Assembly: GCA_964658305.1 (NCBI GenBank) | Contig: OZ210885.1 | Location: 22,196,001-22,260,000, forward strand | Direction of reading: 5' to 3' | DNA length: 64,000 nucleotides | Source of the DNA: Leptogorgia sarmentosa | Taxonomy: Eukaryota | In this document: positions 2,220-57,930 of the stretch, piece after piece | Numbering within the stretch: the stretch's first letter is position 1 | Layout: each line of letters starts with the position of its first letter | Program-made: the position numbers and the translations under genes | The notes under the pieces: generated by a model | What the model was told of the DNA's origin: nothing | Seen by the model: only the letters and a program-made list of their open reading frames with translations | The model's database searches: none

Positions 2220-2255
2220 GTACAGTACAGTACAGTACAGTACAGTACAGTACAG
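2220..2255. repeat. (TACAG)n microsatellite
   Basis: About 7 tandem TACAG units. Confidence 0.95.
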
Positions 2256-18709: not shown

Positions 18710-18775
18710 TTTAAAACCTCTTACCTGTGGTATATGAAAATTATCTCGTATCTCATCACAGCCTTTTTCGTTTAG

Positions 18776-20180
18776 TCAATCTAAATTATCTAGGTAATTC
18801 TTAAAGTTTCTTGCAAGGTTTATTGTGCCACGATTATTCAGATGAACTTTGCGGCCATTTAAACAGTTAGAATCAATATTATTATGGATAATTAATTTCA
18901 AACCCTTAGATTTAGCTAAAGAACTAAGGGTCTCGTTCACACATACACGCTTCTGTTCAAGTTCAGCCGAATCTTGGCGTACGATTAGTTGGGAAATAGC
19001 AATATTTGTTGACGGAGAATCATGATTAACAATGCTACAGACTTTCTCAATTTCCTTTGCGATTTCGCTTGGAGTATTCGATCTGAGATTATTTGTCCCA
19101 ACGTGTAAAATTAAATTATCTGGTTTATACTTAAGTGATGGCTTGATATAGTGGGACATGTCTTCGACTTTTGCTCCAGAGAATGATTTCACTGTCACAC
19201 GTCGAGATTTGTCAGACATCTTCCAACCTTGTAATCGTGATATCATAGAATCACCAACTATGACGGTAGAATTTCGATTCTTATACTCTGTATACTCCGA
19301 TGATTTTCCTTCGAGAAAACTATTAGATTCTGCATCGTTTGGTTTTTGTTCACCCTCGTTGTTGATTTGCGATTTCTTATTTTTATATTTACGTAATGTT
19401 TTCGTCCTCATTGTCGACCGGGCTTTTCCCAGCAGTGTTTACGCTTTCCAATACATCATTGCATTTAACACTTGTGGGTTCGGTATTTGTCATGAGTAAT
19501 TTAATGACCGTTACGAGACTAGCTTTCTCCTCTTCTAGCTTTTTAATATATTCTTTTTGAATATTCTCTCGGTTTTTAAGTTCGTCAATTTCTTTATAGC
19601 ATTGACATTGTACAGGTGAATGATTTACCTGCTTTCCTTGAGTGCAAGAATATGCTTTAATCTTTTCTACCTCATTACGTAGATCTTTTAGCTCACTCAT
19701 AACAGCATCACGAAAAATACTTTCCATATTCATTTGAACGTTCTCGCCAGTATCGATGTTTGACTGACTACAGAGAATTACACTGTCGTCGACCGACCCC
19801 GGTGATGCTTCGTGAGGTTTCAGTGGTTGAAATTCATCTTCTGCTTCGTCTTCGCAGCCATTTTTAATTATATTCATACTTGAAGGAATGACAGGTGACG
19901 CCTTGTTTTCATCAATGATCTTGTGTAAATTGTTTAATAAGGCGTTTTGCCCCGCGCCAAACAATTTAAGCGTTCCTGTTGTTATGTAGAAACGCACTGA
20001 GATGTCGTTGAGCTTATATGTGAAAGCATTGTGCTTCTTGTCTTCTTTCAATTCGCCTTCAGAGTCATCTTCGATGTCTAAGATAGCATTTACAAACTTT
20101 TGCAAATCTTCTGGAGAGCTTTTCCACAAGAAAGAATCATCACTTTCACTATATTTTAGATGTTTCTTTAATAGCGACAT
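18776..20180 (-). CDS. LINE ORF1: coiled coil plus SGNH/GDSL esterase-like domain, split by one frameshift near 19400
   Basis: IVGDSM, SFSGA, HVGTNN and HLN motifs in 18776-19411. The coiled-coil half (19389-20216, ATG at 20180) overlaps it in another frame. Confidence 0.85.
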
Positions 20181-20877
20181 AATAGCTAAATAATAGCTAA
20201 GCAAATCTAGCACCAAATTATTTTATTTTACGGAGCTAGCAAATACACGTCTGCTCACCAAGACAGCCAGACAGACCCACCCAAAATCACCCCTACCACC
20301 CAACCTACTAGATGCACCCAACCTGCTAGATCCACCAGCCACCCCATCACCCTGACGCTAACCCAACTAGGTAGAAACACCCGGCACACCCAGATACAAT
20401 GACCACAACCACCTACCTACCTACTTACCCACTCATTAAGTACCTAATATCTACCTACAGCTACATGGCCACCATGTAATATTTATAAAAAATTAACAGC
20501 ATCTTCTGCACCTTGAGAGAAAGCATGCAGGGTAAGGGAGGGGAGAGTTGATAACCCCTTGTTAAAGAGCAGTAATATGGCTAAACAAACAAAAGCATAT
20601 AAAGCCAGGTTTTCATTGTAGGCTATTAAAGGCACACAGTCAGCGTTTGGACAATGAAATCATTTAATGAATGTAATGCTTTGGCTTTAGCTAGAAATAT
20701 AGCTAGTGAAAATATTGTTAGAATAGGGCAATACTTGTAATCAAGATGAAAAGTCTAAAAATAATGTGTGGGCATGATATTGTATGCCCTGCAAACCCAC
20801 CCTTTTGTTAAAGTAGCAGTAGCAAAACCTTTTTATCTTTACACAGATGACCACATATTTTTGATTATAATACTAAC

Positions 20878-32493: not shown

Positions 32494-35400
32494 AGTGCCT
32501 ATCTCATGGTTGGGTTTTTTACATATATGGCATATTTAGATGATTTCCAGACGATTTGCAATTTAATGTTCTCACAAAAAATGCCATCTTCATGCTTAAT
32601 TTTGCGGGTGAAATCAGCATTTCCGCATTCGAGGGCGCAAAATTGGGATCTGGTGACTAATCTAATTAGTGATGTCACACTAGGGAGGCCAAAAGCTGCA
32701 TCTATTATTTCAGTCAGTTTCATATTACCATAAACCACGTTGTCAACGCTTACGAGACTTTTTATAAGGTAAAAATGCCAAATCGTTGTGTTGTTTATGG
32801 CTGTTCTAATGAACCAAATCCAGAAGCAGGCATTACGCTTCATCCTATACCGTTTACGGATGATTCTCGACCCGAGGCAAAAAAGCGCAGGAAGAAATGG
32901 ATTGAGTGTGTCGCTCGTAAGCGAGCGAAATGGACTCCGGGGAAAACTGCGTCGGTTTGCTCAGTTCATTTTACTGATAAGGATTTTGAAAGGCGATTTT
33001 GGAACTTGCAGTCCGAAGAAGAGACGACGACCAGATCCTTAAAGCATTCGCGACGAAATTTAAGAAAGGACGAAGTTGGGGTTTCTGTTTGGCCTACCAT
33101 ACAAGCGATTCAACCATCTGAAGCCGAAGGAGAGTCGGCAAGAGACATTCGTCGCAAGATAATTCTAATATCAATATGAGTATAACATGTCGCAAAGTTT
33201 CCCATACATGACAGTGATGATACTAGAACCATATAATATAACTAAACAAATTATATTATAATTACATCCAAGGTTTTCAGAGCTAAGAATGGGGGATGCT
33301 CGACATTCACTCCTAGCGAAGGGCAGGCGGCTGGTACTGGTAGTGAAGGAGACGAAGCGACGCCGGAGGCAATCGATATAACAGAGCCGGAGGAAATGGA
33401 TACTCAGAATACAGATGACAACGAAGATCAAGCGCCACAGGTATAACGTTGCGCTATACTTTTAGCCTAATGCCAGTACTTGGTAGTGTGGCAACATCAA
33501 ATAATTACACGTACTGTAGCACTTCATTGATCCATGAGTCCATGATCTGTGTATTAAATGTATGGGTAATCATTTAGGCTTCTGCTAAAGATGCTTGGTG
33601 TCAGACCGTGGAAGCAACATCACCAGCAGCGCACTGTGTAAAATGCAAACAGCTGGAGAACAAGAACCATCGACTAAGCTGCCAGTTGAATAATGCAAAA
33701 GAAGAGATAAAGTCACTAAAGGAGAAGCTGCAGAGTCGAGAAAGAGGTATACATGCCATACAGTAGCCTAATAGTACAGTATGCAGAGTAAAATCCATAG
33801 TCAACATGGAAAATCTGCATCATATTACATGATTTTTTATATTATTCTAATATATTCTTCTAGAAACAGTCTCAAGTGATAGTGAAGGTAGCTCAGATGA
33901 GGATGAGCTAACAAGTCCAAGCATTCCGGAGGAGGAGAGTAGCAATAAAGAGCATTATGACAGTGCCACTACAGATGATACTGTTTCAGAACATATCAGT
34001 ACAGAAGCCAGCAGTAGCAGTAGTGATGAATCTGACAATGGTCTGCAAGATGGAGCTGAGTAAGTGTGATATTAAGGCACTCTTTACATGAGCCTGGTTT
34101 GGTGGACCAAGTTGTTGACCAGCCCAATCTCATGCAAGGGTGCCTATAAAGATTGTACTTTAAGAACTATTAATTTCCAAGTGCTAAGAAGTAGCTTTAA
34201 GGGGGAGGAAGGGGGCAAAGAAATACCTGAGAAAGTATGTAAGAGCTTAATGTGAGGTGGGAGGCTGAATTACACCCTGGTATGTTGCCCTTACTTTCTG
34301 GTGTACAGTAAATACTATAACATGTTGAAATTGAAACATTGTACCTTTGACAGAGCGAAAATACCAGATGGCAACAACCTAAGGACTGAACCAAAGTTTG
34401 TGGTGTTTCTGTCCCAGCTCCTGTTGCTATTTTCAGTCTGTCCCTCATGCAAAGACCAAGGACCATTGGTGAAAGTTCAGAAATATGGTACCATGGCAAA
34501 GGTTACAACCACATGCAGCAATGAAGCATGTAAGAAGAGAGAGAATGTCTGGAATAGCCAGCCTAACATGACCGATACCAACATTCCAGCAGGAAATTTT
34601 TTATTATCATTTGGAACATTGCTTTCTGGTGGTTCCCCTTCAAATATTTTAAGGGTATTTGAGCATATGGGACTGTGTTGCATCTCACTGGCTACTTATT
34701 TTAGACACCAAAGTGTAAGTACAACATACATCTACAACGTTAGTAGCAAACAATTATATATTATACATTGTGTTGGTGTGTGTAGTGAAGTCATGTTGTT
34801 ATTGTCATTTGTCAACAAGTAAAACCGAACCATAATGCAATGGCTTTTGTATTGTCTTTAGTGGTTGTTTTCTGGTGTTTTCTCTAACATCTTTAACACT
34901 GTGTAAACACATATTTTTTTAGAATATGTTATTTCCTTTGTTGCACAACCATTGGCAGACATACCAACTGAAACTTGTGGAAGCAATAAAAAAAGAAAGT
35001 CAGGATGGTGTTGTGATATCAGGAGATGGTAGACATGACAGTATGGGGCACAGTGCCAAATACTGTGCATATACCATCTTCTGTTTCACAACATCAAAGA
35101 TAGTGCACTTCAGCCTTTTACAGGTAATTATTACTTATCAGTACTGTAGAGTCAGTACATATTCTCTCCAATTAATTCTGCAAGTACTTTGGATTGGGGT
35201 TATTAAATACTCCAGTTGATATTGAAAAACAGTTCACATTATTATTTCAGAGAAATGAGACAGGCAGTAGCCAGGCCATGGAGTATGAAGGCTTCCAGAG
35301 GTGCATGGAGTTTCTGTCAAATAAAGAGCTCAATATGACCACTTTTGTGTCTGACAGACACACCTCCATCCAGAAACACATGAGAGAGAAACTGCCAAAG

Positions 35401-37392: not shown

Positions 37393-39964
37393 TTAAGATC
37401 ATTGAAATAATAACCGTTGAAATGACGTTACTCAGGGCTAACCAACCAGTAAATAACTTGCATGTTGTAGCAATTTATCGCTCTGCATCAAAAGTGAAAA
37501 TCTCAAGGTTCATAAATGCCTTAAAAGATTTGCATTCTACTTTTCGAAATGATCCAAATATTCCTGTTATAATTGTTGGAGATTTCAATGTTAATCTAAG
37601 TGAAAATGCTTCCGACAAAAATACACTTTGTAAATACCTAATCGAAGAAAAGAAATATGTACAACTTATTAACCAAGTGACAACCGATTATAAATCACGA
37701 ATTGATCACATTTACACTAATATACATCACAGAGTGAAAAACAGTGGTGTTTTAGAATCATACTTTAGTGATCATAAGCCTATCTTTGTCTCACTTATTT
37801 AATGTATAATCTGGTAATTTTTGCACAATTAATGCGACAATGCAGGGTTGAAATAGTAAAACGAAAATCAAGTTAGCTATGGATAAATTGCAATGAGGGC
37901 ATTCGGGCAGTTATAATAATCTTCACACAATATCGACAAACATAAATATATATTGTACATTGCCAACTGCCCCCTCTTTCCCGAGGGGTTGATGTCCATG
38001 CTTGTCAGGGACATATAAAAGAAGATTTCCCCAAAGTGCCGTCCAGGTAATACAAAGGTAAGTTTACTTCATTCATTTTATCTCACTTTTTTCTCAAGTT
38101 CGTGTTTTCCTGACCGGATCATGATTCAAATTAATTCAATTTTTATTATTTTATAGTGACATCATAACCATCGTCTTCATTTAAGATTATATGTAAAGGA
38201 AAGCCAGAAGAAATAAGGTAAAGGTAGATATTGTTTGTGGTAGCAATTTATATTATGATTTGCATAAAGCTTACTTTATGTCCTTTCAGTTAGAAATTTT
38301 TACCCAGATGGAATTTAATCAATTAGTCTACAAGAACACCTGCTTAGGGCTTGCTTAGGGCTAGTTTCTATTAAACGTTTTCGTCCTGATTCATCCATAA
38401 AATCAAAATTACTTTTAAGCATGTAAATTTAATGTGCAATCTGCTTTTAGCTGTTGGAAATAACAAAGTTGAATTTCAGATTTCTTTCGTTTTACGTAAA
38501 TTTTAATCAAACAATTTACAAACCAAAAAATTTACAAAAACCAAAATGCCGCTTGTTCAGTTTTTTATATGCCCTGTATATGGATGGCATCACCCAAGAT
38601 GAATTTGTTACGATAGTTACCGCCACCAACTGGAAACTATATATACTTGACTAAAAAACAGGGCAATTACTTGAAACTAAACCAAATCAATACACATTTT
38701 CATTTCAGGTCTAAAATTGTGCAAACAGTACAGAAATCTGTGCTGTATGAAGAAGTTCCAATGAAATTATAAGATTAAAATTTACAAACTGGGTTTGGCT
38801 GGCAAATATACACTGTACTATCGGACGACTGATTATCTTGAATTTCATCTGTACTGTTATTGTCAGCCACCAATAGAACTATACGACGATCGTAAATATA
38901 TATGTCATCTTAACTTTCGAAAATCAAAACATCGAAGTTTTATAAAGACATGGTCACGAAGAAAGTTCAGCATTCGTTCCAAAGCTGAAGAAGTCAGGTT
39001 TTATGAACTTTATGTATAACCACATGGCAACTTCCGTCTATGTTGTAAAGAACATTACTTAACCAAGGACACCTATACTCACTCCATGTTGCACATTGGT
39101 TCCAATGTCAGTCATAGCAAGCTATTATACAACAGCTAGTATACCACAATTAGATCTTGCCACTATGATATATCGGGAAATAAGTAAAAAATCATTTTTA
39201 TGTACTATCTAGTTGTCCTGTATCACCAAAGTCGTGAATGCTGCAATTTGGATTCACTTGCAACTCGGTTTATCAGTTATAAGTTTTCTAGCTCGTTTTT
39301 TTACATCATGTAAAATCTAAAAACATCTATTTCTTTAATTAATATGCTTGAAACGAATTACATGGGCGGACATAGCTATATTGCAGCATTTATTGAGAGG
39401 CTGCATGCATGCACATGTTACACAAAATGATTCAAGGCGAGATTGTGATATTTTGAAATAAGTAGACCCGAATCCACACAATATTGACCTTTAGCTTCTA
39501 TATTCACTCTTGACACAATCTCTCCATGTAATAAATACGGTATGTAAACATATTAAACTTCAAATGATGCAAGTTATAAGACCGCTACTTGCGTAATTAT
39601 TTTCTTATTACACGTAATAAGGGTAATAAGCAATATACAGCCAAACCACTAAGGTAACAGGGTAATAAGGGTAATAAGCATTAAAAATACAACTGACCGT
39701 TCCTAGGTATAATTCTCACAACTATAAACTCGCTGCCAGAAAAGAAACCTAAAGTTATTTATCGCTAAAAATCGAGTTAACGCCGCAGCTTACAGCTAAA
39801 ATGACAAAATCTCAAAAATTTTAAAAAAGTCCAAAAATCTATCCTGTTGAATAACAGCGTGCCAAAGGTACTATAATACTGCAAAGTTTGAGAAAGAAAA
39901 TATTATAAAATGGAAATATTTATTGGCCATGGCCATGTAAAATTCTTCCATGTGCATGTTATAA

Positions 39965-40171
39965 CGAGTGTTACTTTATTGGCAAAGGCAACATTTGTAG
40001 ACCCATTTCAGGCGGAAATGGGTGTCACATTAATCTGGCACTTTGGGAGTTGGCACAGCTTTGATAACAAGCGAGTGTTACTTTATTGGCAAAGGCTACA
40101 TTTGTAGACCCATTTCAGGCGGAAATGGGTGTCAAATTAATCTGGCACTTTGGGAGTTGGCACAGCTTTGA
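39965..40171 (+). repeat. 107-bp direct repeat x2, each with a 9-bp-stem hairpin (ACCCATTTC-AGGCG-GAAATGGGT)
   Basis: CGAGTGTTACTTTATTGGC at 39965 and 40072. Confidence 0.92.
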
Positions 40172-40255
40172 TTACATTTCATCTGGCGAGAAATCGCTTC
40201 ACTATAGGTTCCTAACTCCTAAGCGTGCTAAGATTTTATCTTTTGGCTTCAAGTC

Positions 40256-43200
40256 ATGTCGAAGCGACGCCGCGGACAAGATCTGTTTTCACGTGAAGCG
40301 GTCCTTGCGCGTTTGGAGGCAAAATCAGATGTTCATCATAACATAACAAATATTGCAAATTATGAAAGTGCAAAACGTCTTGAAATGACGCAAATCTTGA
40401 ACGAGAAAGAAAGCATTGGCGAAGAGGTAATGGTATTCGTTCTTTCTTCGAAACTAACAATGAAAGGATTGCTAACACTAGCTATGGCGATTAAACACGT
40501 TCCTGCGGCATATAGTCAAACTGGTCACGAGGCCGAGCTCGATGGCTACTCAAACGTTAGGCTGTACGCAATTGGTATGCTAATGAAAAAGGCTGGGTAT
40601 ATGATCGAAGCAAGTCATTTGGAAACCTACGTGACATTAGTTGAAACGCGGTGTCCTTCCTTACTCGTGTCTTACAAGCAAAACTTCAGTGATACACTTT
40701 GGAAAGCTACAGAAGAAGAGGCTTTTAACTTCAACAGCATGATTGCGCCTCCAGTTGATCAATGTCTTCGTTGTAAGAAGCCGTTGACCACCAACAACAA
40801 GCCAACCAAAGCCACATTGTACACACTACATGGGCCAATCCCTCTGACCAAGATTAGACTTCGCTGTCGGGAATGTGCTGTCCAATATGGGATTTGCACA
40901 TTTAGGGATAAGTCTGGAGAACATCTTTACCCAAGGTCTCATCGCCATCATCTTGTGGAAGCCGGCAACGTTACCTACCTTGAAAAAGCGTTATACGAAT
41001 GGATACCGTCATTCGGGTATGAATCTTTAATATATTATTATATATTTTTGCACACATTTGTTGAAAATTATCTAATCTTTTTCTCACACATCGTACTTTG
41101 GTTTTCCCCCTTTCGAGTCCCCCCGCCCACAAAGCTAAGGAGCTTTTTTTCGGACCCCTCCATTCTTTACGTATAAAAGTGCGAGGCGATTATTCGATAT
41201 TGATATTATTTTTTCTGAACAGCAACCATGCTTGGGTGTCATTCAGTGGATTTGCTCAAGTTTATAATGAAGTGTTTGCGAATGAAGTCAGTCGCTATTC
41301 ACGCACATTTGGAGGTACTCTAAGATTAAACTTAAATCTGTCATCTGTGTTAATAAAAAAAGCTATAACTACATGTTCTATGCTATAGTATCTATTGTAT
41401 CTTGAGTTTTTCAGTTTATCTTCGTAAAGTGCTAATAAAGTCAATTCAATTCAATACAAATTAGACTAGTAATTAAGTATTTTATGCATCTTCCCATACT
41501 TGCTAATTGGCAATAATAAAACCAATTTAAAAATTCAAAATGTTTTGCTGCAAAATCTTCCATTTATTTAATTTTTTTTAAGAGAGTACTCATGGTTACG
41601 AGGCTGGCAAAGAAGCTGCTGAAGGCCCATCTATAAGTGATGAAGGTACATATATTTTACTGTTTGTTCACCAGAATGCCAGAATACTGTGTTTAGCCTT
41701 GTTATATTTTTATCCATGTGGATAAAATTTATAAGTTTGTTATGTATTGATAACAGAATTAAATATTTTTGAAGCTATTGAACAGCAAGACCTCATGGAA
41801 GTGGCATGTGATACTAGTACAGACAGTGAAGAAGGTACTGTATGTATAGCTTCATTGAATCATGAGGGGATCGATTTAGGGACCAATATGACATTAGGTA
41901 CGATTGCTATAATAAATTTAATACAACTAAATTATATTGCTTGCATAGGTGTATATTATAATATTGGTGAGATTACTGCAAAAACAGTGGCAAAAGCTTA
42001 TTGGAAAGAGGAGGTCAATTGTGAATTGGCTGATCTAGGGTTGGATGAGCAATGGATTTTCAAAAATGATGCTGGAAGCTTGAGTGGGACATATGATGAT
42101 GCAATGGAGTATGCTGACAAACATCGGAGTCACAATATATATTCCCATGACTGTTCTGAACGTTGCCGAAAAAAGGGTACAGTATGGTTCAATTCTCCTA
42201 ACTTCATATTTGGTGCAGCCATTTCTTTTGATAATTTAAAATGTATATTAAATATATCTATAAATTTCAGAACATGGTAATGAAAAATTATTGCATTAGG
42301 TAGTGGTTAGAAAAAGGGCTGTATTGTATCATTATATTAAAACTGCCTTAAATTAAACGACAAAATTAGGTTTCCAGGAGATTTAGGCCCAGAATACTGG
42401 TGTACTATCAATCGATAGTTTATAAAATATAATTGTGGACAAATTTTGTAATTTATGTTTACAATTACATAGGAAAAATATTTATGGTACCGTAACTATC
42501 AATAATAAATTTTATAGGTTGTGGTGCATTATATGTTGCTGATGGCAACTGGAAACTTTGCCATTTACATTGTATGTGGAAAGTCCCAGTTGAGATCAAA
42601 GGATTTGGCCAAATAAATTACCCCTCTGTATGTCCTTTGACACCAGTTCGGGGTAAGGCTTTTTGCTCCATCCATGTCGCTGCTGCAGAAAAACAACAAA
42701 TCGAAACTGATTTGAAAGGATTTTTAAAAACATGTGGAGTGAATGATGATGATTGCAATAGTGATGGTAAGTTTTACAGATGATTTAAAATTTATGCCAA
42801 ACATGTGAAATATGGGCCGTTTCTCGATATATGATCAACCAAAATAGGTTAGGGTTAGAATATGAAATGAAAGTGTAAGACTGAATTCAAACACACTAAT
42901 TGTGAGACCTTTTATGAAGGTATGGTATTAAGAAGTAACGACAAAGTGGAGCAGCAGCTTGATAAGTTGTCAAAATCATCTACGCCTAGTAATGCAAATG
43001 CCACAACATTTCAAGGTAAATAAAATAGCTGTTATTATGAAATTTACTGTATATTGTACCAACTGTGGATAGTTATTTCCATTTGTATATATTAATTTAA
43101 GTTTCATAATTAAGGAACGTCAGAATTCTTGGAAAAACATCCGAATATTGTTGGTGGTGATAATAGTGACCAAGTCGATGAAGTCATGTGCAACAAGGAC

Positions 43201-43935
43201 ACTGGAGGAAAGACATCATTGCACAGCTGGTCAAGAGGATCAATGTGGATTGTCACTGCAGGTGGCATGATTGAGTATTTCCAGCCTCTGTATAGGTATG
43301 TAGTCAAGAATGGTTATTGCAATACTTTATAGAATAACTATATATGTAGATGTCTAGTTTTATATTAAGAAATAAGAATACAAATATAACTCTGTACTCT
43401 TTATTTCCTTTCTTGTTGCAGGTCTGAATCTCCTACTCAGGCATTTGTAATATTTATGTCATGGCTGCTATTGAAAATCAAACCTATGTTGACAAATGGT
43501 TCTGCTATTGAAGAGACCTCCAAAAAAATTAAGTCAATAACTTTGTCTTATGACAATATGTGCCACGTTGACAACATGAAGATATGCAGACAAGATTTGC
43601 CACTTCCAGCACCACTAAACACTGCATGGAAAGATATGGGGAAGGTTATTGATAGGTTACACTTGCGAAACCACAAAGATGCAAAATGCAAAAGGGAATA
43701 CAATCCAGAAGGGAGAATACCAAGAGAGTTCAACTCAATGGCTGCTGAACAGACATTTGTCTGGGCCAGTCGAATGAAAAAGATAGTCTGTGCAATGCCC
43801 CGACTTCACCATTTCTTCTATTTGCATCGTTCGATCAAAAGGCGTAATGCATATACACAGAGGTGCTATAAACAGAACAAGAACCCTGTCTTGCCAAAAT
43901 TGAGCAAGGACCACTATAATAAATGTAAAAAATAG
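40256..43935 (+). CDS. Spliced KDZ (Kyakuja-Dileera-Zisupton) transposase with CxC5/CxC6-like cysteine clusters
   Basis: PPVDQCLRC...TLYTLHGP...CREC; HDCSERC; VADGNWK; CPLTP...FCSIH; SESPTQ; YDNMCH; IDRLHLRNH; NSMAAEQTF. The middle small exons are not fully resolved. Confidence 0.82.
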
Positions 43936-44428
43936 GAAGCTTGAAAAAAATGATACATATATTTCCATATTATAACACCAGGCATCCGAATTAAGGTTGG
44001 TGATCAGCAAATGTTGACATGATTGCTTAGTACCCATCTTTGTTTTGGGACTGCAAAAATGTGCGAACTAGCAAAGGCATTTCTAATAATTTGAAAAAAA
44101 TTAAAGTTTTGTTGTGCACAGTTTTCATCTTCAGTTCGCAACCTGATTCACACACCTTAGGTAATCTCAGGTTATTTGAGTAAGTATTTTTTGCTGCATG
44201 CTTTGTGTTAGCTAGGTTTGCTGATGTATTGTTGTTCTGCCTCGAGATCACAATTGCAAATTTCCAATTCCACCAATCCAATTCAGATGCCTGTGCATTT
44301 TATATTACATTAAAATTACTACATAATATTAACATGTGTTGAAGACAGGGTTACCATATATCACGAATAAATAAGCTAAACATGTAACAATGCTCTTTGC
44401 TTTTCTTTGTGTTTGCCTTTTGTTTTCA

Positions 44429-47400
44429 TTATTTTCTTGAAGGTGCTAATGATAGTTTTGCTAATTTCTTGATTTCTGGCAACCTTGGTTGTAATTAAAC
44501 TAAATCATTAGGTACCGATAAATGTTCTCGGAACTGGTGTGAATAAAAGTAGACTTGTTCAACGAATGCTTCTCTTTGAATTGAACTGAAAACTGTGTAC
44601 ATGACTAACCCTCTGTATTACAGTTTACGTGATTTGCGTGTTCGCTTTGAGGAGGTTGGACGAAAGGATGGACTGAGTCCATCTTCTAGGCCAGTTGTGC
44701 TGCTTTGACTTGTGGTTGGTGTGGACGATGAAGCTGCAGAAAACATATTATGAGTAATGAAAAATACATAATATGAGTTAAAAATTGACAGCCAGTGTAA
44801 GGTTAAAAAAAATTATTATTTTGGCTTACTTTGAGTCAATAAGGTGCTCAACGTATCCGCAGGGATTGGGTTAGTTGGATCAGTAAGGTTTTCAACGGCT
44901 GTTTTACTTTCCAGCACTCTTATTTTCTCATGGGCCTCAGCCAGCTCTCTTTTCAAATTCACAATAATGTCATCTTTAGTTGACATTTCTTCATTGTGAT
45001 GCTGCTCCAAGTTCATCAGTTCCTGATAATGCTGCTCCTTCTCAGTATTTAACTCAACCACCAAAGCCTTACTGACATGGAGCTCCTTTCTAAGTTCTTC
45101 AAGCTCAGTTGCGGTGTTGATCTCTACCTCTGCAGGTGTATCTTGGTCTGATAATGTATCATCTTCCATAACATCACTGTCATCTTGTACAGGTGCAAAT
45201 ACTAAATTAAAATATAAATTATAAAACGAATATCAGAGATAATAATGTACAAGATAAAAATGTACACATAATACAGCAGTCAAACACTGCACATATTACA
45301 TATACATTATCAAAGCATTTTTGTGATTCCATGTGATTCCCCTGCACTGCTGTAGACTGGATGGTCTAGCTGTACGCTCAAATAAAACGGTGAAAGTATT
45401 TAATTATATAGCCACTTCAATTAATCACCTTTATCTAAACTGTCCAAAACAGAAGCTTCCAATGCCCGTCGTGGTATCTTCAGACAAGGATCTTGGTTTG
45501 CACCAGTAAAGCGAGAGCGGAACTTAACGTTAGCACCAGGAATACGTGAAATAGTTGTTTTAATGGCTTGGGTATTGATTGTTACCCCTGCATCACGCAA
45601 GTATGCCTCCGCCTTTGCTATGTTGACATGGATTGTATCTCCATGCAATGACTGCCTGCTGTCTACTTTGGGCTTCAACCATTTAGAAATCTGTAATAGG
45701 TAAAATATTGAAAAATTCAAATACAATATAGATAAATTGTTTAATAATATAACTATAACATGAGTAAAACTTATGACTCAAATTGCTTTAAAATACGAAC
45801 TTAAATCAATACATACATCTCACTGATAATTTTTTTAAATTTAAAATTTACGTGTAAACACTAAACAGTCTAAACAAATCATATAGATATGAAAACATTT
45901 GAAATAAAAAATATACATAAATGTAACAATGATTCCGTAGTGTTTCCGCTTATATTGATATTAGGGTATTTTCCATGAAGTCTGACAAGGAGGTTTGTGT
46001 TGGATATACAGTGGAGCCCCACTTTACAACCACCTTGTCAATACGACCTCCTCATTAATATTACCAAAATATTCTAACCGAATATTATTAGGAACACGCA
46101 GTATGCTTCATACACATATCCATTTAAGTACCTCATCAATACTTGTTCCCTTCGCTTTAACAGTATTGACAATGGCAGTTGTGAATGAATTGACATCATT
46201 TGGACCAGAAGAAGACCCTGCGTAAAAATCTTTCACATATGGAATGAACTTATGTTCCAGGTAGTTGTCCAGATCAGTTTCACTTATGATTACTGCATCA
46301 TCAACCAACTCAATAATCTAATAAGATACAACAAAAGTTTGTTTTTAACCCATGAACACATCGCGTTTCATCATTTGGGTTAACAATAGACCCAATTACC
46401 TTTCTTGCGAAGAAGCGATAAACAGAATAAATACTGGACAATCTGTTTGGAAGTCCTTCCATGTATTGGTTGAAGAATTTTACATGCTCGTTCAAGTTGG
46501 TGAAATCCAATCCCTTTACCATTCGGATCACATCTGGTAAACAACTCGTTTTTGCCAATTGAAGCATCATTTGTTGCTGGTCCAAGAAATTGGATGCACC
46601 TTTCACCATTTTCTCAAACCATATCGGTGCAGTTCTTTCAAATGATCTGGAATTAAAATTGTTAAAATTTTGAAATAGTTTCGGGAAGCTTGTTGAGTTG
46701 CCCACCCTGAAGGGTGAAAGACTCGTAATCACTTGACAAATATGCTCATGACCTTGTGAAAAATGAACTAAACAAATTACCTAATGTCATCATCCAAGGT
46801 AAAATTCACGGTAAGGAGGAATGAAGTCTCAGGTAATTCTGTTCCAAATTGCTTTGTTTGCCTGCCACCTCTCTGAAATGTTGACACCAAAACTTTCTTC
46901 ACGGTATTTGGATGGGTTGGGTCATCCCAAGAAACTGGCACAGTTGTTTTCATCAAATCTGCTGAAAGTGATTCTCCAGATGTTTGTGAAATAAGCTTTC
47001 CTCCAAGAAGTTTGTTAATAACAATCAGTGATGTTGACTTGCCACTTGATGGATTACCAACAGCCATTGGAACTGAGCAAGAACCTGAAAGTTGGATTGA
47101 TGGCAACAGTTGCATGAACTACACACAAAACTTCACAGTTTGGTTAAATATTTATTATTTCTGAAGAAACATTTCTAAATTCATAAACAAATTGTTGGGG
47201 AATTTGCTTTAAATTGTAAATTAACCCAGGGTTAAACTAACCGGCTTTTGAACAACCGGCCCCTGGTAGAAAAATAACATCTCACCTACAACATTTAGAA
47301 CTTGGTGATAGTGGAACACTGAGACTGATCCAGCAAGAAACATAAAAAATGGGAAGAAGTTACAGCTGAAGAACCTGCGTGCTTCATCGATGAACTGTTT

Positions 47401-49665
47401 CCAACTAAACATTTGAAGTGGGACATCAATATTTATTGGTTGTGCAGTAAGGTATTCCCTGAGGTGCCTGTCACTGAGTGCCATTTGCATGCTCTTCAAG
47501 TAGGGGGCCATCAGAACATATTTATGGTTTTCTTTGGGTATGAGAATACCTTCAGCATCGATCTATAAAAGAGATTCTTAAATAACATTCGCTCGATATC
47601 AAAATTGGGCTGCATGCATGCATGTGTTAGGGGGAAATCAAAGTGTCCAAGAAAATTTTGCCTAGCCGAAAAAATACTACAGGTTTATATTTCAACAAAA
47701 ATATAGCTAATGCAGGTTTCGCATATGTATTTTATACCTGAACCTCTTCATTCAGCACATACACCGCACTTTCCAACCCTTCAGTTTTTTGTTGCCCGAT
47801 GACCAACGCTGCTTTTTTTGTGGCTCTATCACCATTGCCATCTGCCCAAAACTCTTCGCTCATTTTCATCAGGAGGTTGCACAATTGATTGTCCTGTACA
47901 CTCTCCCACAGAACTCCACCTCTGCAGGAAAACATACGATTTATCGCATTTCTGAAACTTTTTGCGACATTGAGCTCATCGCACGTCACGAATGCCTCCC
48001 TATTATTTTTTAAAAAAATTTAGTAGGATTCTAATTCTAAAAATTTAAACTGTATTAAAAGTCCTGCGCAAATGATCAAGGTTACATCACACCACTGAGA
48101 AGTGCTTTAAAAAATTGGCTTTCCTTTGTTCGCAACGAAGTGATCGTATTAACGGGGTACTTTCATCATGAAATAATAGGTTTTTTTTTGGTACAAAAAA
48201 GCGGTGTTATAACGAGGTGGTCCGTCGCCTATAGTATAGCGGGGTTCCACTGGACTTAAAATTCGCTCTAAATAACACCTCCTGAAACAAAGCAATCGTG
48301 TAATCTCGCAGTTCCGCATTCCTTTATATATGTTTTACTAACAACGTGTTTTAATGTTTTATAGTATTGAATTTAGAATATATACATGCAATGCTACGCG
48401 AGAAACTTCATGAAATGTTAATTCCTTCAGAGAGGTTTTCCACTTTAACGCAAATGAACGTTTTATTTTAGGCTTTGATTTTTCTTTTCCGTTTTCCCCA
48501 CTAGCTACATACACCTATAATGTTTTCATTAATTATCTGCATGGGGCGATGGTCGGTGATATTTCTTTTAATGGCTGTCGCCAAGTGTGGCAAGAGGTGT
48601 AAAACTGATAAGAACCGCTTGCCGCAGTTTATCTGACCGACGCCGACCAGCCTTTGTGGATGTACCCTAACCCGCGTTTAACAACTCACGCTGTGCCGGA
48701 ATGCCAGCTTGTGTCTATATCCAAACTTTTCTGGCGGACAAAAAAAAACATTCCTCTATATCTCCACCACACTTCATTATTTAATCCAAAAATTCAGAAA
48801 TATGACAAGCACTAATTTATGTGTCCGTAATACAACTATGTGTAAAAAATAAATGATGTAAAAATGTGTGATGTAACCTTCGCCTAAGGCCACGCAACAT
48901 AATACTATTAGGCCACCCACCCTATTGCATTGGAAGCCACTTTAGATATATTTATTGGAGTATATAAAACATAAACACTACATGCCGTTATAATATATGA
49001 TTTTAATCCAATTTGATAAAGAAACTTGTTTTGTCTTTCAAATGTATATTACAATTATAAGAGCGACTCGATGTTTCTATTTAATAAAGCGGCAAAATAA
49101 GCTTTTTCTCCTTAAAAATTATTGCCAGATTTCTCGAAAATCATCATTCAAAACGATACTAACATAAAGCGTTTTTTACTTTTTAATAACTGATGTTTTA
49201 AGCCAGTCCAGAACGAAAACAATTAAAATACACAATTACACAAATATAATCCTACAAGTTTGCATTTGAGTTTGCACGCTTATAGTTATAGATCCAAACT
49301 AAAAAATCTCCCAGCACCTGACATTTTTATCTGCGCGAACTTTGTTTATTCTCTGATTACCTAGCTATACGATTAAATAATTCCTGCCCACTAAAATCTT
49401 TGCGGTTTGGTTAAACTATATACAAAAGAAGTATTCGAGTGCTTATTACTTACATCTTTACTCCGTCCCCTGTCCTTTCCACGTCGAGTAAGTAGCCGTT
49501 GTAGCGACTTAAGCCACTCGGAAAAATTACAAAATTCTTCATGCGAAAATAAAAGTTCGCCACCGACTTGTAAGTGTTGTCACCTACTTTGGCATGTATT
49601 GATAACTTATTCTCTCTGTCCTGGCGGACAGAGAGAGATTTTTTTGGAGAAGGAGAAGCCTGCAT
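44429..49665 (-). CDS. Multi-exon P-loop NTPase, SF3/DUF927(Cch)-like helicase candidate with C-terminal coiled coil
   Basis: In-frame exons 49665-49454, 47999-47738, 47562-47286, 47084-46781, then from 46646. Walker A GNPSSGKST, Walker B VSWDD, motif-C-like LLTVN, Arg-finger-like ERTAPIWF. The 3' exons and stop are approximate. Confidence 0.7.
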
Positions 49666-50017
49666 TTTTGCCAAACTTCGACAGCGCTTATTCTGTTATT
49701 CAACACGTTAGCAGCAACAACAGCCTGACCACACTGACTTTGCTGCCAGGCTGCCAGTGAGTTGGCACCCAGCGTGCGAACTGCGAATTTGATTGAATGG
49801 TGACAAACACCGACTGCGAACTCGATTGGCTGGTGACAAACACTGACAAGATCACCATCGGCCACCCGACAGGCACATTCGCTTTTTGCATTGTTCACGC
49901 GAAAAAACTCGCTGAGCGGAAAACGGGCTTTACTGTTAATTTACGATAAATAAATAGAATGCTAACCAAGACGTGAGTTTAAAGGCCGCTTCAACCCCTA
50001 GCTATACCGTGTATATA

Positions 50018-50845
50018 TCTTATTACCCTTACTACCTTATTATACGTGCGTATACCCTTATTACCTTATTACCTTATTACCCTTGTTACCTTATTACCCT
50101 TGTTACCTTATTACGTTATTACCCTTATTACCTTATTACCCTTATTACCTTATTACCCTTATTACGTTATTACCCTTATTACGTTATTACCCTTGTTACC
50201 TTATTACCCTTATTACGTTATTACCCTTGTTACCTTATTACGTTATTACCCTTATTACCTTGTTACCCTTATTACGTTATTACCCTTATTACCTTATTAC
50301 GTTATTACCCTTATTACGTTATTACCCTTGTTACGTTGTTACCCTTATTACGTTATTACCCTTATTACCTTGTTACCCTTATTACGTTATTACCCTTATT
50401 ACGTTATTACCCTTGTTACGTAATACCCTTATTACGTTATTACCCTTATTACCCTTGTTACGTTATTACCCTTATTACGTTATTACCCTTATTACCTTGT
50501 TACCCTTATTACGTTATTACCCTTATTACGTTATTACCCTTGTTACGTTGTTACCCTTATTACGTTATTACCCTTATTACCTTGTTACCCTTATTACGTT
50601 ATTACCCTTATTACGTTATTACCCTTGTTACGTAATACCCTTATTACGTTATTACCCTTATTACCCTTGTTACGTTATTACCCTTATTACGTTATTACCC
50701 TTATTACCCTTATTACGTTATTACCCTTGTTACGTTGTTACCCTTATTACGTTATTACCCTTATTACCTTATTACCCTTGTTACGTTATTACCCTTATTA
50801 CGTTATTACCCTTATTACGTTATTACCCCTATCACCTTATTACAT
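50018..50845. repeat. ~820-bp complex satellite of TTA/TTG + TTACCC/TTACC/TTACG units
   Basis: Directly visible; produces artefactual Leu/Tyr/Pro ORFs in all three plus-strand frames. Confidence 0.97.
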
Positions 50846-50847
50846 TA

Positions 50848-51269
50848 CCGTATTTACTCGTTTGAGCGCCGCCCCCGATTGAGCGCCGCCCTCGAATGAG
50901 CGCCGCATTTCAGCTCAAATTTGTTTAAAGAGCGCCGCCCCGGAAAGAGCGCCGCACTGAAAATTTTGAAATGTGGCGCTTAATCCATCGATTAAGAAGA
51001 TGGATTAAGAAGCGAATAAAAAACAACAACAACTTAAATCAACCTCGGAAATTTATTTTCTTGTATTGAAATGCTTTATAATTCAAAGTGAGTGTACTTT
51101 GAAGCTCTTTTACACTTATATTTTATTGTAAAAAGTTGTTGTTATATTTCACAAATAAAATATTTTTTAAAGAGCGCCGCCCCCGATTAAGCGCCGCCCC
51201 CGAATGAGCGCCGCATCAGAAGCTCTCAAAATTTAAAGAGCGCCGCGGCGCTCAAACGAGTAAATACTC
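50848..51269. mobile_element. MITE, Tc1/mariner-pogo-like (TA|CCGTATTTACTCG ends)
   Basis: GTATTTACTCGTTTGAGCGCCGC versus GCGGCGCTCAAACGAGTAAATAC; many internal GAGCGCCGC motifs; the right tip is mutated. Confidence 0.8.
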
Positions 51270-52685
51270 TTATAATTACATCATTCCCCTTATTACCTCA
51301 TTAACGTATTACCATAGTATTGCCAAGGTATTTTGCTGTGTATGTGCATTTCATGTTCCATGCTCATGTTACCTTATTACTATGTATACTTATAGTAGTT
51401 TGGTTGTATGGTTGTTTCATAATGCTAGTTTTGTAAAACTAGCAGAAAATTATAGTTCATTATATTCATGAAAAGTATATGGATACCACACTTGAAAGTA
51501 CGATTAATGTTAAATTACCCAAAGCAAATGCGATGAACATAAAGAATTCTCAGTTTCGGACCAAGGCTTGTTACTTAATTACTGGTAATAAGAAAAAAAC
51601 ACCTAAAGTAGTGGTCTTATATCTTGCATGGTATATTAAACTTGACCCAACGAGACAATATATCACCTTGATCAAATGCCTAGATTTATGTAAACATTTA
51701 GAAAGATTATTGTTCGCTACTTCGCTATTTTAGAATAAAAAGGATATTGTACCAGAAACCAGACCTCTATGATAACAAAACATTTGCTTCATTAAATGGA
51801 CAGAATTGTAACATTGCATGAATTCTCTGACACCATAGATTACGAGCTGCCTGTCTCTTGTAATACTGCCAAAAGGCAAATATTTTTTTGCTCCAATGAG
51901 GTTTTAACTTGCCATGCTGTATTATTCTGGCATGTGGCAGCCGAAAAAAGTCATATAGAAGGGGGGGTGTCGCACCACACTGATTTCAATATGCAATAAT
52001 TTGGAATGTAACAAATTTCGTGACAGCAATTCAAACTTACTGTAAAGTGTATGATAACAATCGCAATCAGCTATCTGGAATAACACTATATACGTGTAGT
52101 GTATACACTATATACGTATTCATATATGAATCAATATTGAAGCACAAGTTAAACACTACATGCACTAAGCCTGGTTGGTTAATCACTGTGCAAGACTGCG
52201 CAACAAATTGGTTATTACTGAATATCACTGCTCTCTAAAAAAATCGCTGCAAAAGCTGGATTACGGCGCTCAATTAAATATAATAAATTCACATCAGTCA
52301 TACTGCATGCACTCTATAGCTATACATCATGCAAACTATATAGAACATTGGTATAATGAATCAAACATGCAGTCTTGATAATAAACATAGCTACCTTCTA
52401 AACTTTTCAATTTCAAAACAAATCAAACATTCAAACTAAATCAGTTTATGAATATAGATTTATTAATTTTTACAATATTAATTTTTTCCCTGCATGCTAT
52501 ACTATAACGAAATTAATTTCTCAAAATATAAATTCACCTTAATATGTTTACCCCATTGTCAATTGTTCATAACTGTTTACATATACATGTACATACTATT
52601 TATCTACGAAAGATGTCCATGAATTAATATAAAGTTTTTAAGCAGTTCATAGTATGCAAGTTCAGCAAGAAAGAGTACACTTGGT

Positions 52686-55214: not shown

Positions 55215-57930
55215 TGTTCCCGTATTGAACGACATGTCAAAGGTTGGATCAATTTCACTCACTATTACGATTTTATGGTCGTAATTTTTTATAATCTGGA
55301 TTGATATAAATCACCAACAAAACGCAAAAAATCTACATGATAACACAGATAATAACACCCGACTACGCTATCTTCCCTTTTCTACGACCACTCTGGTCCA
55401 GTCCGTATTGTTTGTCCCTATGGGGGGAGGGGTGAAAACCAAAAAAACAAATATGAATTCCAAAACATCCCCCTCTCGAATGCGACTACATTCGTTAAAC
55501 TAAAACTTAAATTTTGTCCTAAATGTTCATCAATGTCTCTCCAACGGGCATAGTCGATGTACTGGCCAAATGTATTCAGCTTCTCCCACCTTGATCTTCG
55601 CTAACTCTGATGAGGTCGTCATGACCTCGATATGTCTCGACCACACGCCCAAGTGGCCACTCACCCCACTTTGCATTGGGCTTGACTGAAAGCACAACGT
55701 CTCCTGCTTTCAGCTCTCGCTTCGGGTTGAACCATTTACCTCTCACATTCAGGCTAGGTAGGAACTCCTTGTGCCACCTTTTCCAAAGCTGTCCAATTAA
55801 TTGTTGAATCCGTCTCCAGCTCTTTCTTGGGTGGAACACTTCGTCCGGGCTAACTTCGTGGGCGAACTGTCCACCTAGATTTCCAACCAGGAAATGTGCA
55901 GGTGTAAGAGGTTCCAAGTTGTCCGGACTTGAACTAATGTATGTTATCATGCTTTTAAATACTCCTCCAAAATGTGGGGCAGACGATGGACAATTCGCCC
56001 ACTCGATTTTGTGATGTTGGGTGGTTTTCTTCACTATTTTCATCTTCGTCTAATTCGCATATCTTTTTGCACATCTCTTCCTCGGCACCGACGAAGTTCG
56101 TCCCGTTATCCAAAATCACATACGAAGGCGTCCCCCTCTGTGCGGTCATCCGTACGAATGCATGTATGATCCAGGTGGTCAGTCGCACTAGACGTGTTGT
56201 TTGATCTGTTTCATTCGTCACATGGGTTTTCACTTTCTTCTTCTCCTGCAGCGTTTGGGGGTGATTTAGATGGTAATCTCTCTGGCCAAGGCTCACCATT
56301 GGTCAGGAAGTTTGGACCACGCATCCAGGAATCGTTGTGGCATAGTTCTAGGGATGGTCACTGCTTTTAGGGGGGGGACGTGAGTCTTCGAGGTAATCAA
56401 ACAAGCCGTTGGTGGGTTGTCTCTGTACTCACTACAAGGTAGGACGCGGAAGCGTAGGCGTCTTTGGAAGCATCAGAGAAGGTATGTAACCACGACTTGG
56501 TTGGATTCAGGAGGTGGAGAGGATGAGGGATTTTGAAGTCAATTAGGTCGTTCAGTTCCCTGGTCCAGTCATTCTATTTGTCGGTAAGCTCGGCTGGTAG
56601 ACGTTCATCCCAATCAATTCCGGCAGTCCAAATTTTTTGCAGTAGAATTTTTGCTCTGATAGTAAATGGTGACAGGAACTGCATCGGGTCAAATAACTTG
56701 GCAACGCTGCCGAGCACATTTTGTTTCGTCTGCGGTTCTGATAGGGGTGGACGTTTTACTTGAAAGGTGAAAGTATCTCGGTCGGCTTGCCAAGAAAACC
56801 CTAACGTCTTCAAGGTTGGAAGATTGCCGCTGTCAATTTCCAAACCTGGTAGACGGTCTTCTAGAGGGACGTCTTCGATGACTTCAACCTGGTTTGACAT
56901 CCATTTCTTCAGAATGAATCCTGCCTCAGACAAGAGTCCTGTCATTTGCTGCTGGAGGTCCTTGGCTTCCATCACTGTTTCACACGAATCTAGCACATCA
57001 TCTACGTATATTGCATTGTTCACCGTACCAGCTGCCTCTGGATACGTCTCCTTGTTACTTTTGGCATGGGAGTGTAGAACATGCTGAGCGCAGAATGGCG
57101 ATGCTGTGTTACCAAAGGGTGATCTCGCAAACTCGTAGACTTTGGGTTCCATGGACAAGTCCAGTCCTCGCCATAAAAATCAGTGAAAAGGACAGTCTTT
57201 TTCTGCCAGTCCAACTTGCAGAACCACAGGAACATTTGCGAAATGTCGGCTGACAGGGTTACAGGTGTTCTTTGAAACCTAGTCAGGACGTCAACAAGTT
57301 CCCGTTGCAACTTTGGTCCAGAATATATTGCTTCAAATAAAACTCTTGCCCTTCAGCTTGGCAGCAGCGTCGAAAATGATTCGAACCTTCGTCAACATCT
57401 TTTCATTATTCACCACAGCAAAATGGAGTAAAAGGCACTGTTTGTTATCCATCAGCAGCACTTTCGCCACGTACCCTTATTCATATAGTCGTTGATTATG
57501 TCACAATAGGCCTTTGCAACATCCGGCTTCTTCAACAGGGACGTTTCGAGATTCAACAATCGTGAGAAGGCCATCTCGAAGTTATTTTTAAATTCCGGTT
57601 CTCCCTCTTGTCTCGTCCTTGGTCATTGCCCGAATACTACTGTCTTTAATCCCAACGGCATCAAGTTTCCAGAATTTTCTCAAAAGTTCATTTGTCTCGT
57701 CAACTTTCAACTGGCTAGTTCGATAGGTGCAGGTCATGTGGACATGGGTGTTGATCGACAAAACATTCTTGGAATGGGTCTTTTGGGTGTTCGCCATTAA
57801 CTTCTCATAGAACCTTGTGGAAGGCAGGGTGATCACTTCGATTTGCTTACGGCTCGATCAAATGCAATTGAGGTCAAATGGGGCCAAGTTGTTTATCATA
57901 ATCTCTGTGTCTTCTCTTGCGTCATCCATT
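55215..57930 (-). mobile_element. Heavily deleted BEL/Pao retrotransposon relic with a putative 3' LTR (~55215-55467)
   Basis: Fragments ADISQMF, PFGNTASPF, YVDD, FDPMQFLSP, DNGTNF, APHFGG, PLTPAHFL, WPLGRV. A polypurine tract precedes TG at 55467 on the minus strand. Confidence 0.85.

What the first reader, a model, noticed from the sequence alone, without database searches (positions are those of the whole stretch)
39604..50845. KDZ transposase paired with a spliced SF3/DUF927-like helicase: candidate undescribed helicase-carrying DNA transposon
Seen: a CxC5/CxC6 KDZ transposase (+, 40256-43935) and a multi-exon P-loop gene (-, 49665 to ~44429) lie tail to tail ~500 bp apart. Each starts a few hundred bp inside a putative end, the same layout as the IS3EU element in this window. 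The partner has Walker A GNPSSGKST, Walker B VSWDD, LLTVN and a following Arg, spaced like SF3/AAA+ replicative helicases, and an N-terminal VANF...F..A block reminiscent of phage/ICE DUF927-Cch helicases. Known: KDZ elements are described with TET/JBP, SUMO-protease or F-box cargo, Academ carries RecQ, and Helitrons carry PIF1. I do not know of a KDZ element with an SF3-type helicase. Inference: a DDE transposon with its own replicative helicase, possibly of prokaryotic or viral origin and since intronised.
Basis: partly seen in the sequence, partly recalled or inferred. Interest (0 to 1): 0.9.

Follow-up and report, generated by a model that had tools for sequence, protein, structure and literature searches.

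The report
Mobile transposon carrying phage-type helicase
This is an intact 12,000-base jumping gene of a marine animal (likely a soft coral), present on some chromosomes and absent from others, that carries beside its cut-and-paste enzyme a second spliced gene predicted to make a DNA-unwinding motor of a kind otherwise known from bacterial viruses and genomic islands, a pairing I could not find in print.

Summary
Confirmed, with corrected ends and a corrected family. The element spans 39561-51635 (12,075 bp), not 39604-50845. It has imperfect TIRs and an 8-bp target duplication. Public runs show the empty site (2 of 4 runs), three other right-end flanks, one other left-end flank and deletion derivatives, so it has moved recently. 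It encodes two uninterrupted nine-exon frames, tail to tail: a 747-aa CxC5/KDZ transposase and a 745-aa AAA+ ATPase; 3 of 16 predicted introns are seen spliced. The ATPase is not best called SF3: a model of a full-length lancelet relative matches the MCM-like DUF927 helicases Cch and SaPIbov1 Rep (Z 19.4, 19.1), ahead of MCM (12.7) and D5-type SF3. The same two genes, in the same layout, sit together in a 50%-diverged locus, the only one of 8 long enough to tell. There is no primase or polymerase gene. Helicase activity and its role are inferred; most likely it serves the element's own mobility by unwinding its DNA so that host polymerases copy it. New variant of a known kind.

The parts
39553..39560 (.). 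Left copy of the 8-bp target site duplication
   Evidence: Identical to 51636-51643; single copy in empty-site contigs of runs X4 and X7
39561..51635 (.). Whole element, 12,075 bp, ends 5'-CA ... TA-3'
   Evidence: Right end: three other flanks begin after 51635 in X4, X6, X7. Left end: an X8 contig joins other DNA at 39560/39561; follows from empty site plus right end
39561..39618 (+). Left terminal inverted repeat (imperfect)
   Evidence: 44 of 58 bases complementary to the right end; longest inverted pair in 14 kb
39612..39680 (+). Left subterminal GGTAATAA-type repeats; candidate protein-binding sites (inferred)
   Evidence: 3 copies here, 0 in the 10.3-kb interior, 1 in 39.5 kb of left flank
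39965..40176 (.). 107-bp tandem duplication upstream of the transposase start
   Evidence: 2.0 copies, 97%
40256..43935 (+). KDZ transposase gene, 747 aa; exons 40256-41016, 41223-41314, 41583-41645, 41775-41834, 41949-42176, 42518-42766, 42920-43015, 43115-43295, 43422-43935; CxC5; candidate catalytic D410, D621, E686
   Evidence: Open frame; CxC5; relatives with PF18758/PF18718; introns 2 and 8 skipped in X8 contigs; residues
44618..49665 (-). Cch/DUF927-type AAA+ ATPase gene (predicted MCM-like helicase), 745 aa; exons 49665-49454, 47999-47738, 47562-47286, 47084-46781, 46646-46400, 46317-46132, 45690-45429, 45201-44830, 44733-44618
   Evidence: Open frame; intron 6 skipped in an X8 contig; motifs; family; fold of relatives; profile link to the folded relative
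50053..50843 (-). 17-bp-period tandem array of the same GGTAATAA-type motif, inverted relative to the left repeats
   Evidence: 47 units; 47 motif copies on the - strand
50850..51267 (.). Unrelated MITE-like insertion in the right arm
   Evidence: 23-bp perfect inverted repeats at its ends
51578..51635 (-). Right terminal inverted repeat (imperfect)
51636..51643 (.). Right copy of the 8-bp target site duplication

Best explanation
This is an intact, recently mobile two-gene KDZ DNA transposon whose second gene is predicted to encode a Cch/DUF927-type ring helicase that likely serves the element's own spread by unwinding its DNA. Shown: the ends, the 8-bp target duplication, presence/absence at this site, other insertion sites, two open spliced frames, and the recurrence of the pair. 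Inferred from the family: the DDE transposase binds the ends and joins them to a target with an 8-bp stagger. Inferred from the fold: the ATPase forms a ring and translocates on DNA, like Cch and SaPI Rep. Most speculative: it loads at the GGTAATAA subterminal repeats, as SaPI Rep loads at iterons, and opens the element so that host primase and polymerases make an extra copy (of the donor or of an excised form) that the transposase then inserts. The element has no primase or polymerase of its own, so it would be helicase-assisted, not self-synthesizing. Odds: real mobile unit with both genes 0.95; Cch/DUF927 family 0.9; ATPase needed for the element's mobility or copy gain 0.7; by unwinding for copying, rather than another step, about 0.45 overall.
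For: Mobility: empty site in 2 of 4 runs from 2 studies, filled junction in 3 of 4, other right flanks in 3 of 4; other left flank and two internal-deletion forms in X8. Expression: 3 of 16 predicted introns skipped exactly in X8 contigs, from both genes. Linkage: L002 holds both genes tail to tail; its first five ATPase exons have the same intron phases, no stop, and 214 of 430 identical residues, while blastn of the whole element against L002 hits only two transposase exons. Catalytic residues: Walker A G-K invariant in 24 of 24 and Walker B DD in at least 90% of an alignment with 21-44% identity to its first row. Fold: model of full-length relative P0085 gives Cch E 5.8e-10 and SaPIbov1 Rep 8.3e-9, then D5/E5/NrS-1 at 1e-5 or weaker; VIA Z 19.4 (386 aligned, rmsd 5.3) and 19.1 (355, 5.0), then MCM 12.7 (258, 4.2). 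The window protein's profile aligns to P0085 over that span (prob 99.9, E 1.9e-35, 384 columns). ESM Atlas features point to DUF927 clusters (0.95; 0.97), with TM 0.73-0.78 to helicase halves of phage primase-helicases. Cch is a proven helicase related to the self-loading SaPIbov1 Rep that binds iterons (PMC7581432, PMC5862659; passages).
Against: No biochemical or copy-out evidence: no circles, no amplification. Copy number looks low (element end 426 against 166-240 on the flank in X4; contig depth is a poor measure), which does not suggest strong replication. The fold was predicted for relatives, not for the window's spliced protein; the model of the closer relative L003 (ATPase core only, pLDDT 67) ranks Cch first by Foldseek only weakly (1e-4) and ties Cch with RFC and Rubisco activase by VIA (Z 10.5-10.8). 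Only 5 of 36 family members hit Pfam DUF927, best E 2e-4; profile search of PDB sequences gives Cch E 0.39 and SaPI Rep E 0.13. A C-terminal origin-binding domain was not shown (low confidence there; no Pfam hit). Linkage rests on 1 informative diverged locus of 8, and its transposase has one internal stop; neighbours of the lancelet, anemone and unnamed relatives are unknown. No likeness to the window's ends was found in L002.
Confidence: 0.45

Rival explanations
1. The ATPase is an essential partner in transposition but does not drive copying: it works as an ATP-dependent target-capture, remodelling or donor-repair factor, in the manner of MuB, TnsC or IstB (roles recalled), or as the RecQ helicases of KolobokH and Academ may do.
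For: Intact, conserved and linked to the transposase across 50% divergence; no primase or polymerase in the element; apparently low copy number; RecQ helicases ride on KolobokH DDE elements (PMC9587614, passages).
Against: The match to Cch covers the N-terminal domain as well as the AAA+ core and lid (model 24-483 against chain 8-453), the build of a replication-initiator helicase. IstB, TnsC and MuB are not among the rows shown (absence from such lists is weak).
Confidence: 0.3
2. The ATPase is long-term cargo, kept for a benefit other than the transposition reaction (for example against silencing, or a host benefit), like TET/JBP genes on fungal KDZ elements.
For: KDZ elements often carry accessory genes (PMC12730594, PMC12477816; passages). 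KDZ relatives in an octocoral lie on other contigs than the ATPase relative from the same species (contig lengths 124,275 and 174,600 against 8,721), so some related transposases may lack it; their neighbourhoods were not seen.
Against: A DNA-motor fold with conserved catalytic residues fits a DNA transaction; same layout in L002; deletion derivatives lose both genes but keep the ends, as non-autonomous copies do.
Confidence: 0.17
3. The ATPase is a conserved single-copy host gene, or an independent element, that happens to lie between the ends of a KDZ copy.
For: Intron-rich gene; relatives annotated as ordinary uncharacterised genes in lancelets.
Against: The empty allele lacks both genes; one TIR pair and one duplication enclose both, and no second terminal pair was found inside; the pair recurs in L002; run X12 of another species holds 94-98% alike pieces of both genes and the spacer but nothing on the left flank.
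Confidence: 0.03
4. The element is a degenerate virus-like or self-synthesizing element (Polinton or casposon type) that has lost its polymerase.
For: Closest structural kin are phage primase-helicases.
Against: No polymerase, primase or capsid frame: the other stop-free frames of 70 aa or more are array shadows or short unassigned frames; no relatives in viral contigs or phage records; L002 shows the same two-gene content by tblastn (other genes in L002 were not sought).
Confidence: 0.05

Closest known systems
KDZ DNA transposons, Zisupton and Dileera type (PMC12730594, passages and supplement search; PMC9297572, PMC12477816, passages)
   Same: CxC5 plus KDZ-type DDE transposase, multi-exon genes, over 10 kb, TIRs, 8-bp target duplication, accessory gene.
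   Different: Accessory gene is a Cch/DUF927 AAA+ helicase-like ATPase, not TET/JBP (or SUMO protease and F-box, recalled). Differs from fungal Kyakuja, which make 7-bp duplications and have no TIRs. Sub-lineage not placed on a tree.
Cch of SCCmec (PDB 5DGK) and Rep of SaPIbov1 (PDB 8TCH); DUF927 helicase halves of phage primase-helicases
   Same: Predicted fold from the N-terminal domain through the AAA+ core and helical lid; Walker A, Walker B, sensor-1 Asn and candidate arginine finger and sensor-2 Arg; sits on a mobile element beside its recombinase.
   Different: Animal gene with eight introns, an acidic coiled-coil tail and a basic C-terminus; 10-14% identity; partner is a DDE transposase, not a serine or tyrosine recombinase; no primase, SSB or polymerase gene; activity untested.
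Helicase-carrying DDE transposons: KolobokH (PMC9587614, passages) and AcademH (recalled; paper not held)
   Same: DDE transposase with a conserved helicase partner of unknown role.
   Different: Their helicase is RecQ-like; this one is an AAA+ ring-type motor of phage and island type, and the transposase is KDZ.
Helitrons, Polintons and casposons (Helitron from passage; the others recalled)
   Same: Eukaryotic or prokaryotic elements that carry DNA replication proteins.
   Different: No HUH nuclease, no polymerase, no capsid genes; integration leaves an 8-bp duplication typical of DDE enzymes.

Membership tests
KDZ DNA transposons | CxC cysteine cluster N-terminal to the transposase | tested here: met
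   PF18718 CxC5, 34.5 bits against cut-off 26.9
KDZ DNA transposons | KDZ RNase H-like domain (PF18758) | tested here: inconclusive
   No PF18758 hit on the window's single exons. Of 6 relatives at 44-57% identity, 1 passes the cut-off and 2 hit below it
KDZ DNA transposons | Intact D-D-E triad | tested here: met
   D621 and E686 in 6 of 6 relatives; D410 in the 3 that cover it. Their naming as the catalytic triad is by motif, recalled
KDZ DNA transposons (Zisupton/Dileera type) | 8-bp target site duplication | tested here: met
   Empty site plus mapped right end; 8 bp for Zisupton and Dileera in PMC12730594
KDZ DNA transposons (Zisupton type) | Terminal inverted repeats | tested here: met
   44 of 58 bases
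Kyakuja (as defined in fungi) | 7-bp duplication, 5'-CA..TG-3' ends, no TIRs | tested here: not met
   8-bp duplication, CA..TA ends, TIRs present (definition)
KDZ sub-lineage (Zisupton, Dileera or Kyakuja) | Position in the transposase phylogeny | not tested
   No reference transposases of the three lineages were in hand
Cch/DUF927 MCM-like helicases | N-terminal domain plus AAA+ core plus helical lid matching Cch | tested here: met
   On relative P0085: Z 19.4, 386 aligned, rmsd 5.3, linked to the window protein by a 384-column profile match. Not modelled on the window's own spliced protein
Cch/DUF927 MCM-like helicases | Pfam PF06048 match | tested here: inconclusive
   5 of 36 members, best E 2e-4; none on the window's exons; Atlas features 0.95 and 0.97 to clusters with 10-88% DUF927 members
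Cch/DUF927 MCM-like helicases | Intact Walker A, Walker B, sensor 1, arginine finger, sensor 2 | tested here: met
   K266, D304-D305, N344 conserved; R356 and R420 align with Arg in both lancelet proteins; the roles of the two Arg are assigned by position
Cch/DUF927 MCM-like helicases | C-terminal dsDNA-binding domain | tested here: inconclusive
   Model below pLDDT 60 past residue 475; exon 7 conserved at about 30% in L002 and L007 but without Pfam hit
Cch/DUF927 MCM-like helicases | ATP-dependent ring helicase activity | not testable with these tools
   Needs biochemistry
SF3 helicases (D5, E1, large T) | AAA+ core without a C-terminal helical lid (definition recalled), SF3 members as nearest structures | tested here: not met
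   Confident helices follow the core (residues 360-474); SF3/D5 entries rank below Cch and SaPI Rep by three to four orders of E-value. With the core alone, E1 and Cch are close
Self-synthesizing transposons (Polinton, casposon) | Own DNA polymerase gene | tested here: not met
   No further coding frame in the 12,075 bp

The most novel reading that the evidence does not exclude
Animals harbour a widespread, still active class of DDE transposons that took a self-loading replication-initiator helicase from a phage or bacterial island and use it to start replication of their own DNA at iteron-like subterminal repeats with host polymerases: a copy-out mode of transposition unknown for eukaryotic DDE elements, and the first eukaryotic branch of the Cch/DUF927 MCM-like helicases.
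Probability: 0.25. Interest if true: 0.9.

Novelty: new variant of a known kind. Interest (0 to 1): 0.7.

Why it matters
Why some DDE transposons keep a helicase gene (KolobokH, Academ) is an open question, and those helicases are RecQ-like. Here the partner is a replication-initiator-type AAA+ motor whose known kin are in phages and bacterial islands; none of the 17 DUF927 papers listed has a title on a eukaryotic element. This copy is intact, spliced, has base-exact ends and an empty allele, so it is a ready specimen for a transposition assay with and without the ATPase. It also flags an unannotated animal gene family (octocoral, sea anemone, lancelet) as probable transposon genes, and bears on how MCM-like helicases move between mobile elements and cells.

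Tried and rejected
No whole genome is held for this window, so genome-wide copy counts were impossible. No RNA holder was listed; X8 is of unrecorded type. Pfam and PHROGs on single ATPase exons gave nothing significant. Word-index search with P0001 for longer proteins: 0 of 850 candidates. P0020 and P0029 (fish GIMAP GTPases) among the 79 hits match only at the P-loop and were left out of the alignments, as were most exon-sized fragments (36 rows used in A1, 24 in A2, 10 in A3, 32 in A4). phmmer of P0001 against PDB: 1 chance hit. No relatives in viral contigs, prokaryotic genomes or phage records; these searches reach close relatives only. The broad alignment had no block conserved enough for a DNA scan, so the one metagenome scan used the close subfamily and says nothing on distant members. 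An 11-bp duplication was considered and rejected: other copies end at 51635, so three of the eleven bases belong to the element. A short first intron in the transposase gave a broken frame and was dropped. No window-like terminus in L002. Accession adjacency of octocoral proteins showed no linkage. Look-ups of earlier scan notes by sequence were blank. Papers not held: Iyer 2014, Mir-Sanchis 2016, Kojima 2020 on AcademH. No complex was predicted.
Full report
Scope. No whole genome was held, so the work rests on the window, public sequencing runs, protein collections and metagenome loci. The nearest named relative of the ATPase is 85% identical over one exon and comes from the octocoral Paramuricea clavata, so the host is probably an octocoral (inference).

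Genes. On the - strand, nine GT-AG exons from 49665 to 44618 join into a 745-aa frame without a stop. On the + strand, nine exons from 40256 to 43935 give 747 aa without a stop. The stops are 682 bp apart. The + protein has CxC5 above the Pfam cut-off. Its last exon finds 6 relatives among 83 candidates at 44-57% identity in corals and a clam; one passes the KDZ domain cut-off and two hit below it. D621 and E686 are kept in all 6, D410 in the 3 that cover it. In run X8, of unrecorded type, contigs skip exactly transposase introns 2 and 8 and ATPase intron 6: 3 of 16 predicted introns, with 5 joints not shown in the table. The other junctions are predictions, but ATPase introns 1-5 fall at the same positions and phases in L002. 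The 3' end of the ATPase gene is the least certain part.

Ends and mobility. Laying four runs on the right end settled it. In X4, X6 and X7, one contig each follows the element to 51635 and continues into a different flank. In X4 and X7, contigs join 17 bases that are the window's left flank (39533-39549) straight to 51633: the empty site, with one copy of the repeat. These contigs are short (56 and 82 bases, under the tool's 31-base bridging rule on the left side), but the exact match appears in two studies. X4, X6 and X7 also hold the filled junction, so the insertion is polymorphic. The element is therefore 39561-51635, with an 8-bp duplication, ends 5'-CA..TA-3' and 44 of 58 terminal bases complementary. 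An X8 contig enters the element at 39560 from other DNA and then skips 39798 to 48452 at a 6-base microhomology; another skips 40522 to 49250: deletion derivatives at other sites. Whether the other right ends belong to full-length copies is unknown. A GGTAATAA motif occurs 3 times at the left end and 47 times, inverted, in the right array, against 0 in the interior and 1 in 52 kb of flanks. A MITE at 50850-51267 interrupts the right arm.

What the ATPase is. Single exons gave no significant Pfam or PHROG hit. A full-library search with the octocoral protein gave 79 hits, mostly exon-sized pieces, two of them false P-loop hits; named true members come from lancelets and a sea anemone. Walker A and B are conserved across the family. 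The full-length lancelet protein P0085 was folded (mean pLDDT 63.7, mostly 85-95 over the core). Foldseek ranks Cch (5.8e-10) and SaPIbov1 Rep (8.3e-9) first, then D5/E5/NrS-1 at 1e-5 or weaker; VIA gives Z 19.4 and 19.1 for those two over 386 and 355 residues, then MCMs at 12.7 and below. A profile led by the window protein aligns to the lancelet pair over residues 23-439 (prob 99.9). The ESM Atlas points to DUF927 clusters and to phage primase-helicases, as does the viral structure library (best E 5e-14). Against this: only 5 of 36 members hit PF06048, sequence profiles reach Cch only at E 0.39, and a core-only model of the closer relative L003 cannot separate Cch from other AAA+ proteins. 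The N-terminal domain is what makes the call specific. Cch is described as an MCM-like DUF927 helicase, of a different family from the D5-type Cch2 (PMC7581432 and PMC10061031, passages; PMC5862659, passages).

Do the genes travel together? One metagenome scan gave 8 loci from 135 pattern matches. Seven end within 1.5 kb of their last ATPase match and cannot show a partner. The eighth, L002, has the transposase tail to tail with the ATPase, 28-56% and 31-64% identical by segment, with one stop in its last transposase exon. Run X12, labelled as another organism, holds 94-98% alike pieces of both genes and the spacer and nothing on the left flank, though no single contig joins the two coding regions. 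Five earlier notes of this scan describe a KDZ or KDZ-like gene paired with a helicase-like ATPase in sponges and other animals. They are unchecked AI notes, share no detectable words with my sequences, and are leads only; they describe decayed copies, whereas this one is intact.

Mechanism. Shown: a DDE-type insertion signature and recent movement of the two-gene unit. Inferred: the ATPase is a ring DNA motor kept under selection. The element has no primase or polymerase frame, so any copying needs host enzymes. By analogy with SaPI Rep, which loads at short iterons, I favour loading at the subterminal repeats and unwinding that lets the host copy the element (0.45). A non-replicative role in target capture or donor repair (0.3) and cargo with another benefit (0.17) stay open; the repeats may simply bind the transposase. 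The clean empty site fits a pre-insertion allele or a precise excision and does not decide between cut-and-paste and copy-out.

Comparison with print. Zisupton and Dileera make 8-bp duplications; fungal Kyakuja make 7 bp and have no TIRs (PMC12730594, passages; its one supplementary table holds no 'helicase' or 'ATPase'). Giant KDZ elements with accessory genes are known in algae and fungi (PMC12477816, passages); nematode Zisupton passages mention no helicase or ATPase (PMC9297572). KolobokH carries RecQ (PMC9587614, passages). Nine searches (listings and abstract starts seen, passages read only for the papers named here and PMC9926710) showed no KDZ element with a DUF927/Cch or SF3 helicase and no animal DUF927 gene.

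Verdict. A real, intact, polymorphic KDZ transposon with a conserved Cch/DUF927-type helicase-like partner; apparently undescribed; role of the partner untested. New variant of a known kind, interest 0.7.

Noticed in passing
window 47157-47265 (ATPase intron 3): A short high-copy repeat, probably a MITE, sits in the intron: depth 240-850 against about 10 around it, with many unrelated flanks.
   Followed up: no
window 50053-50843: The 17-bp array varies between copies: loose ends in X4 and X7 at 51285 and 51385 suggest copies with differently built right arms, and an X8 contig turns from 50040 into an inverted match to the left repeats.
   Followed up: partly
L003 1273-2455: An intronless relative of the ATPase gene with frame changes at both sides of a 329-aa frame: a transcript assembly or a processed copy.
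   Followed up: partly
window 43700-44800: Depth three to five times that of the rest of the element in X3, X6 and X12, with many variant contigs near 44380: related elements may share the transposase 3' end and spacer.
   Followed up: no
ESM Atlas hit of P0001: An unnamed eukaryotic cluster of 173 members (one record from a nematode) scores 0.94 by features; the family may reach nematodes.
   Followed up: no
window 10304-15364 (-), 55576-57179 (-): Reverse transcriptase, RNase H and integrase-like frames of BEL/Pao-type LTR retrotransposons (label recalled from motifs).
   Followed up: no
window 15893-20222 (-): A 960-aa endonuclease-reverse transcriptase frame with upstream frames, like a CR1/L2-type LINE (label recalled).
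   Followed up: no
window 1870-9050: Frames at 2473-8337 (-) resembling a MULE-like transposase with a SWIM-type finger, bounded by inverted 19-bp tandem arrays at 1910-2011 and 8947-9049 (label recalled).
   Followed up: no
window 32673-34822 (+): A THAP-like frame followed by a transposase-like frame; possibly part of another DNA transposon (label recalled).
   Followed up: no
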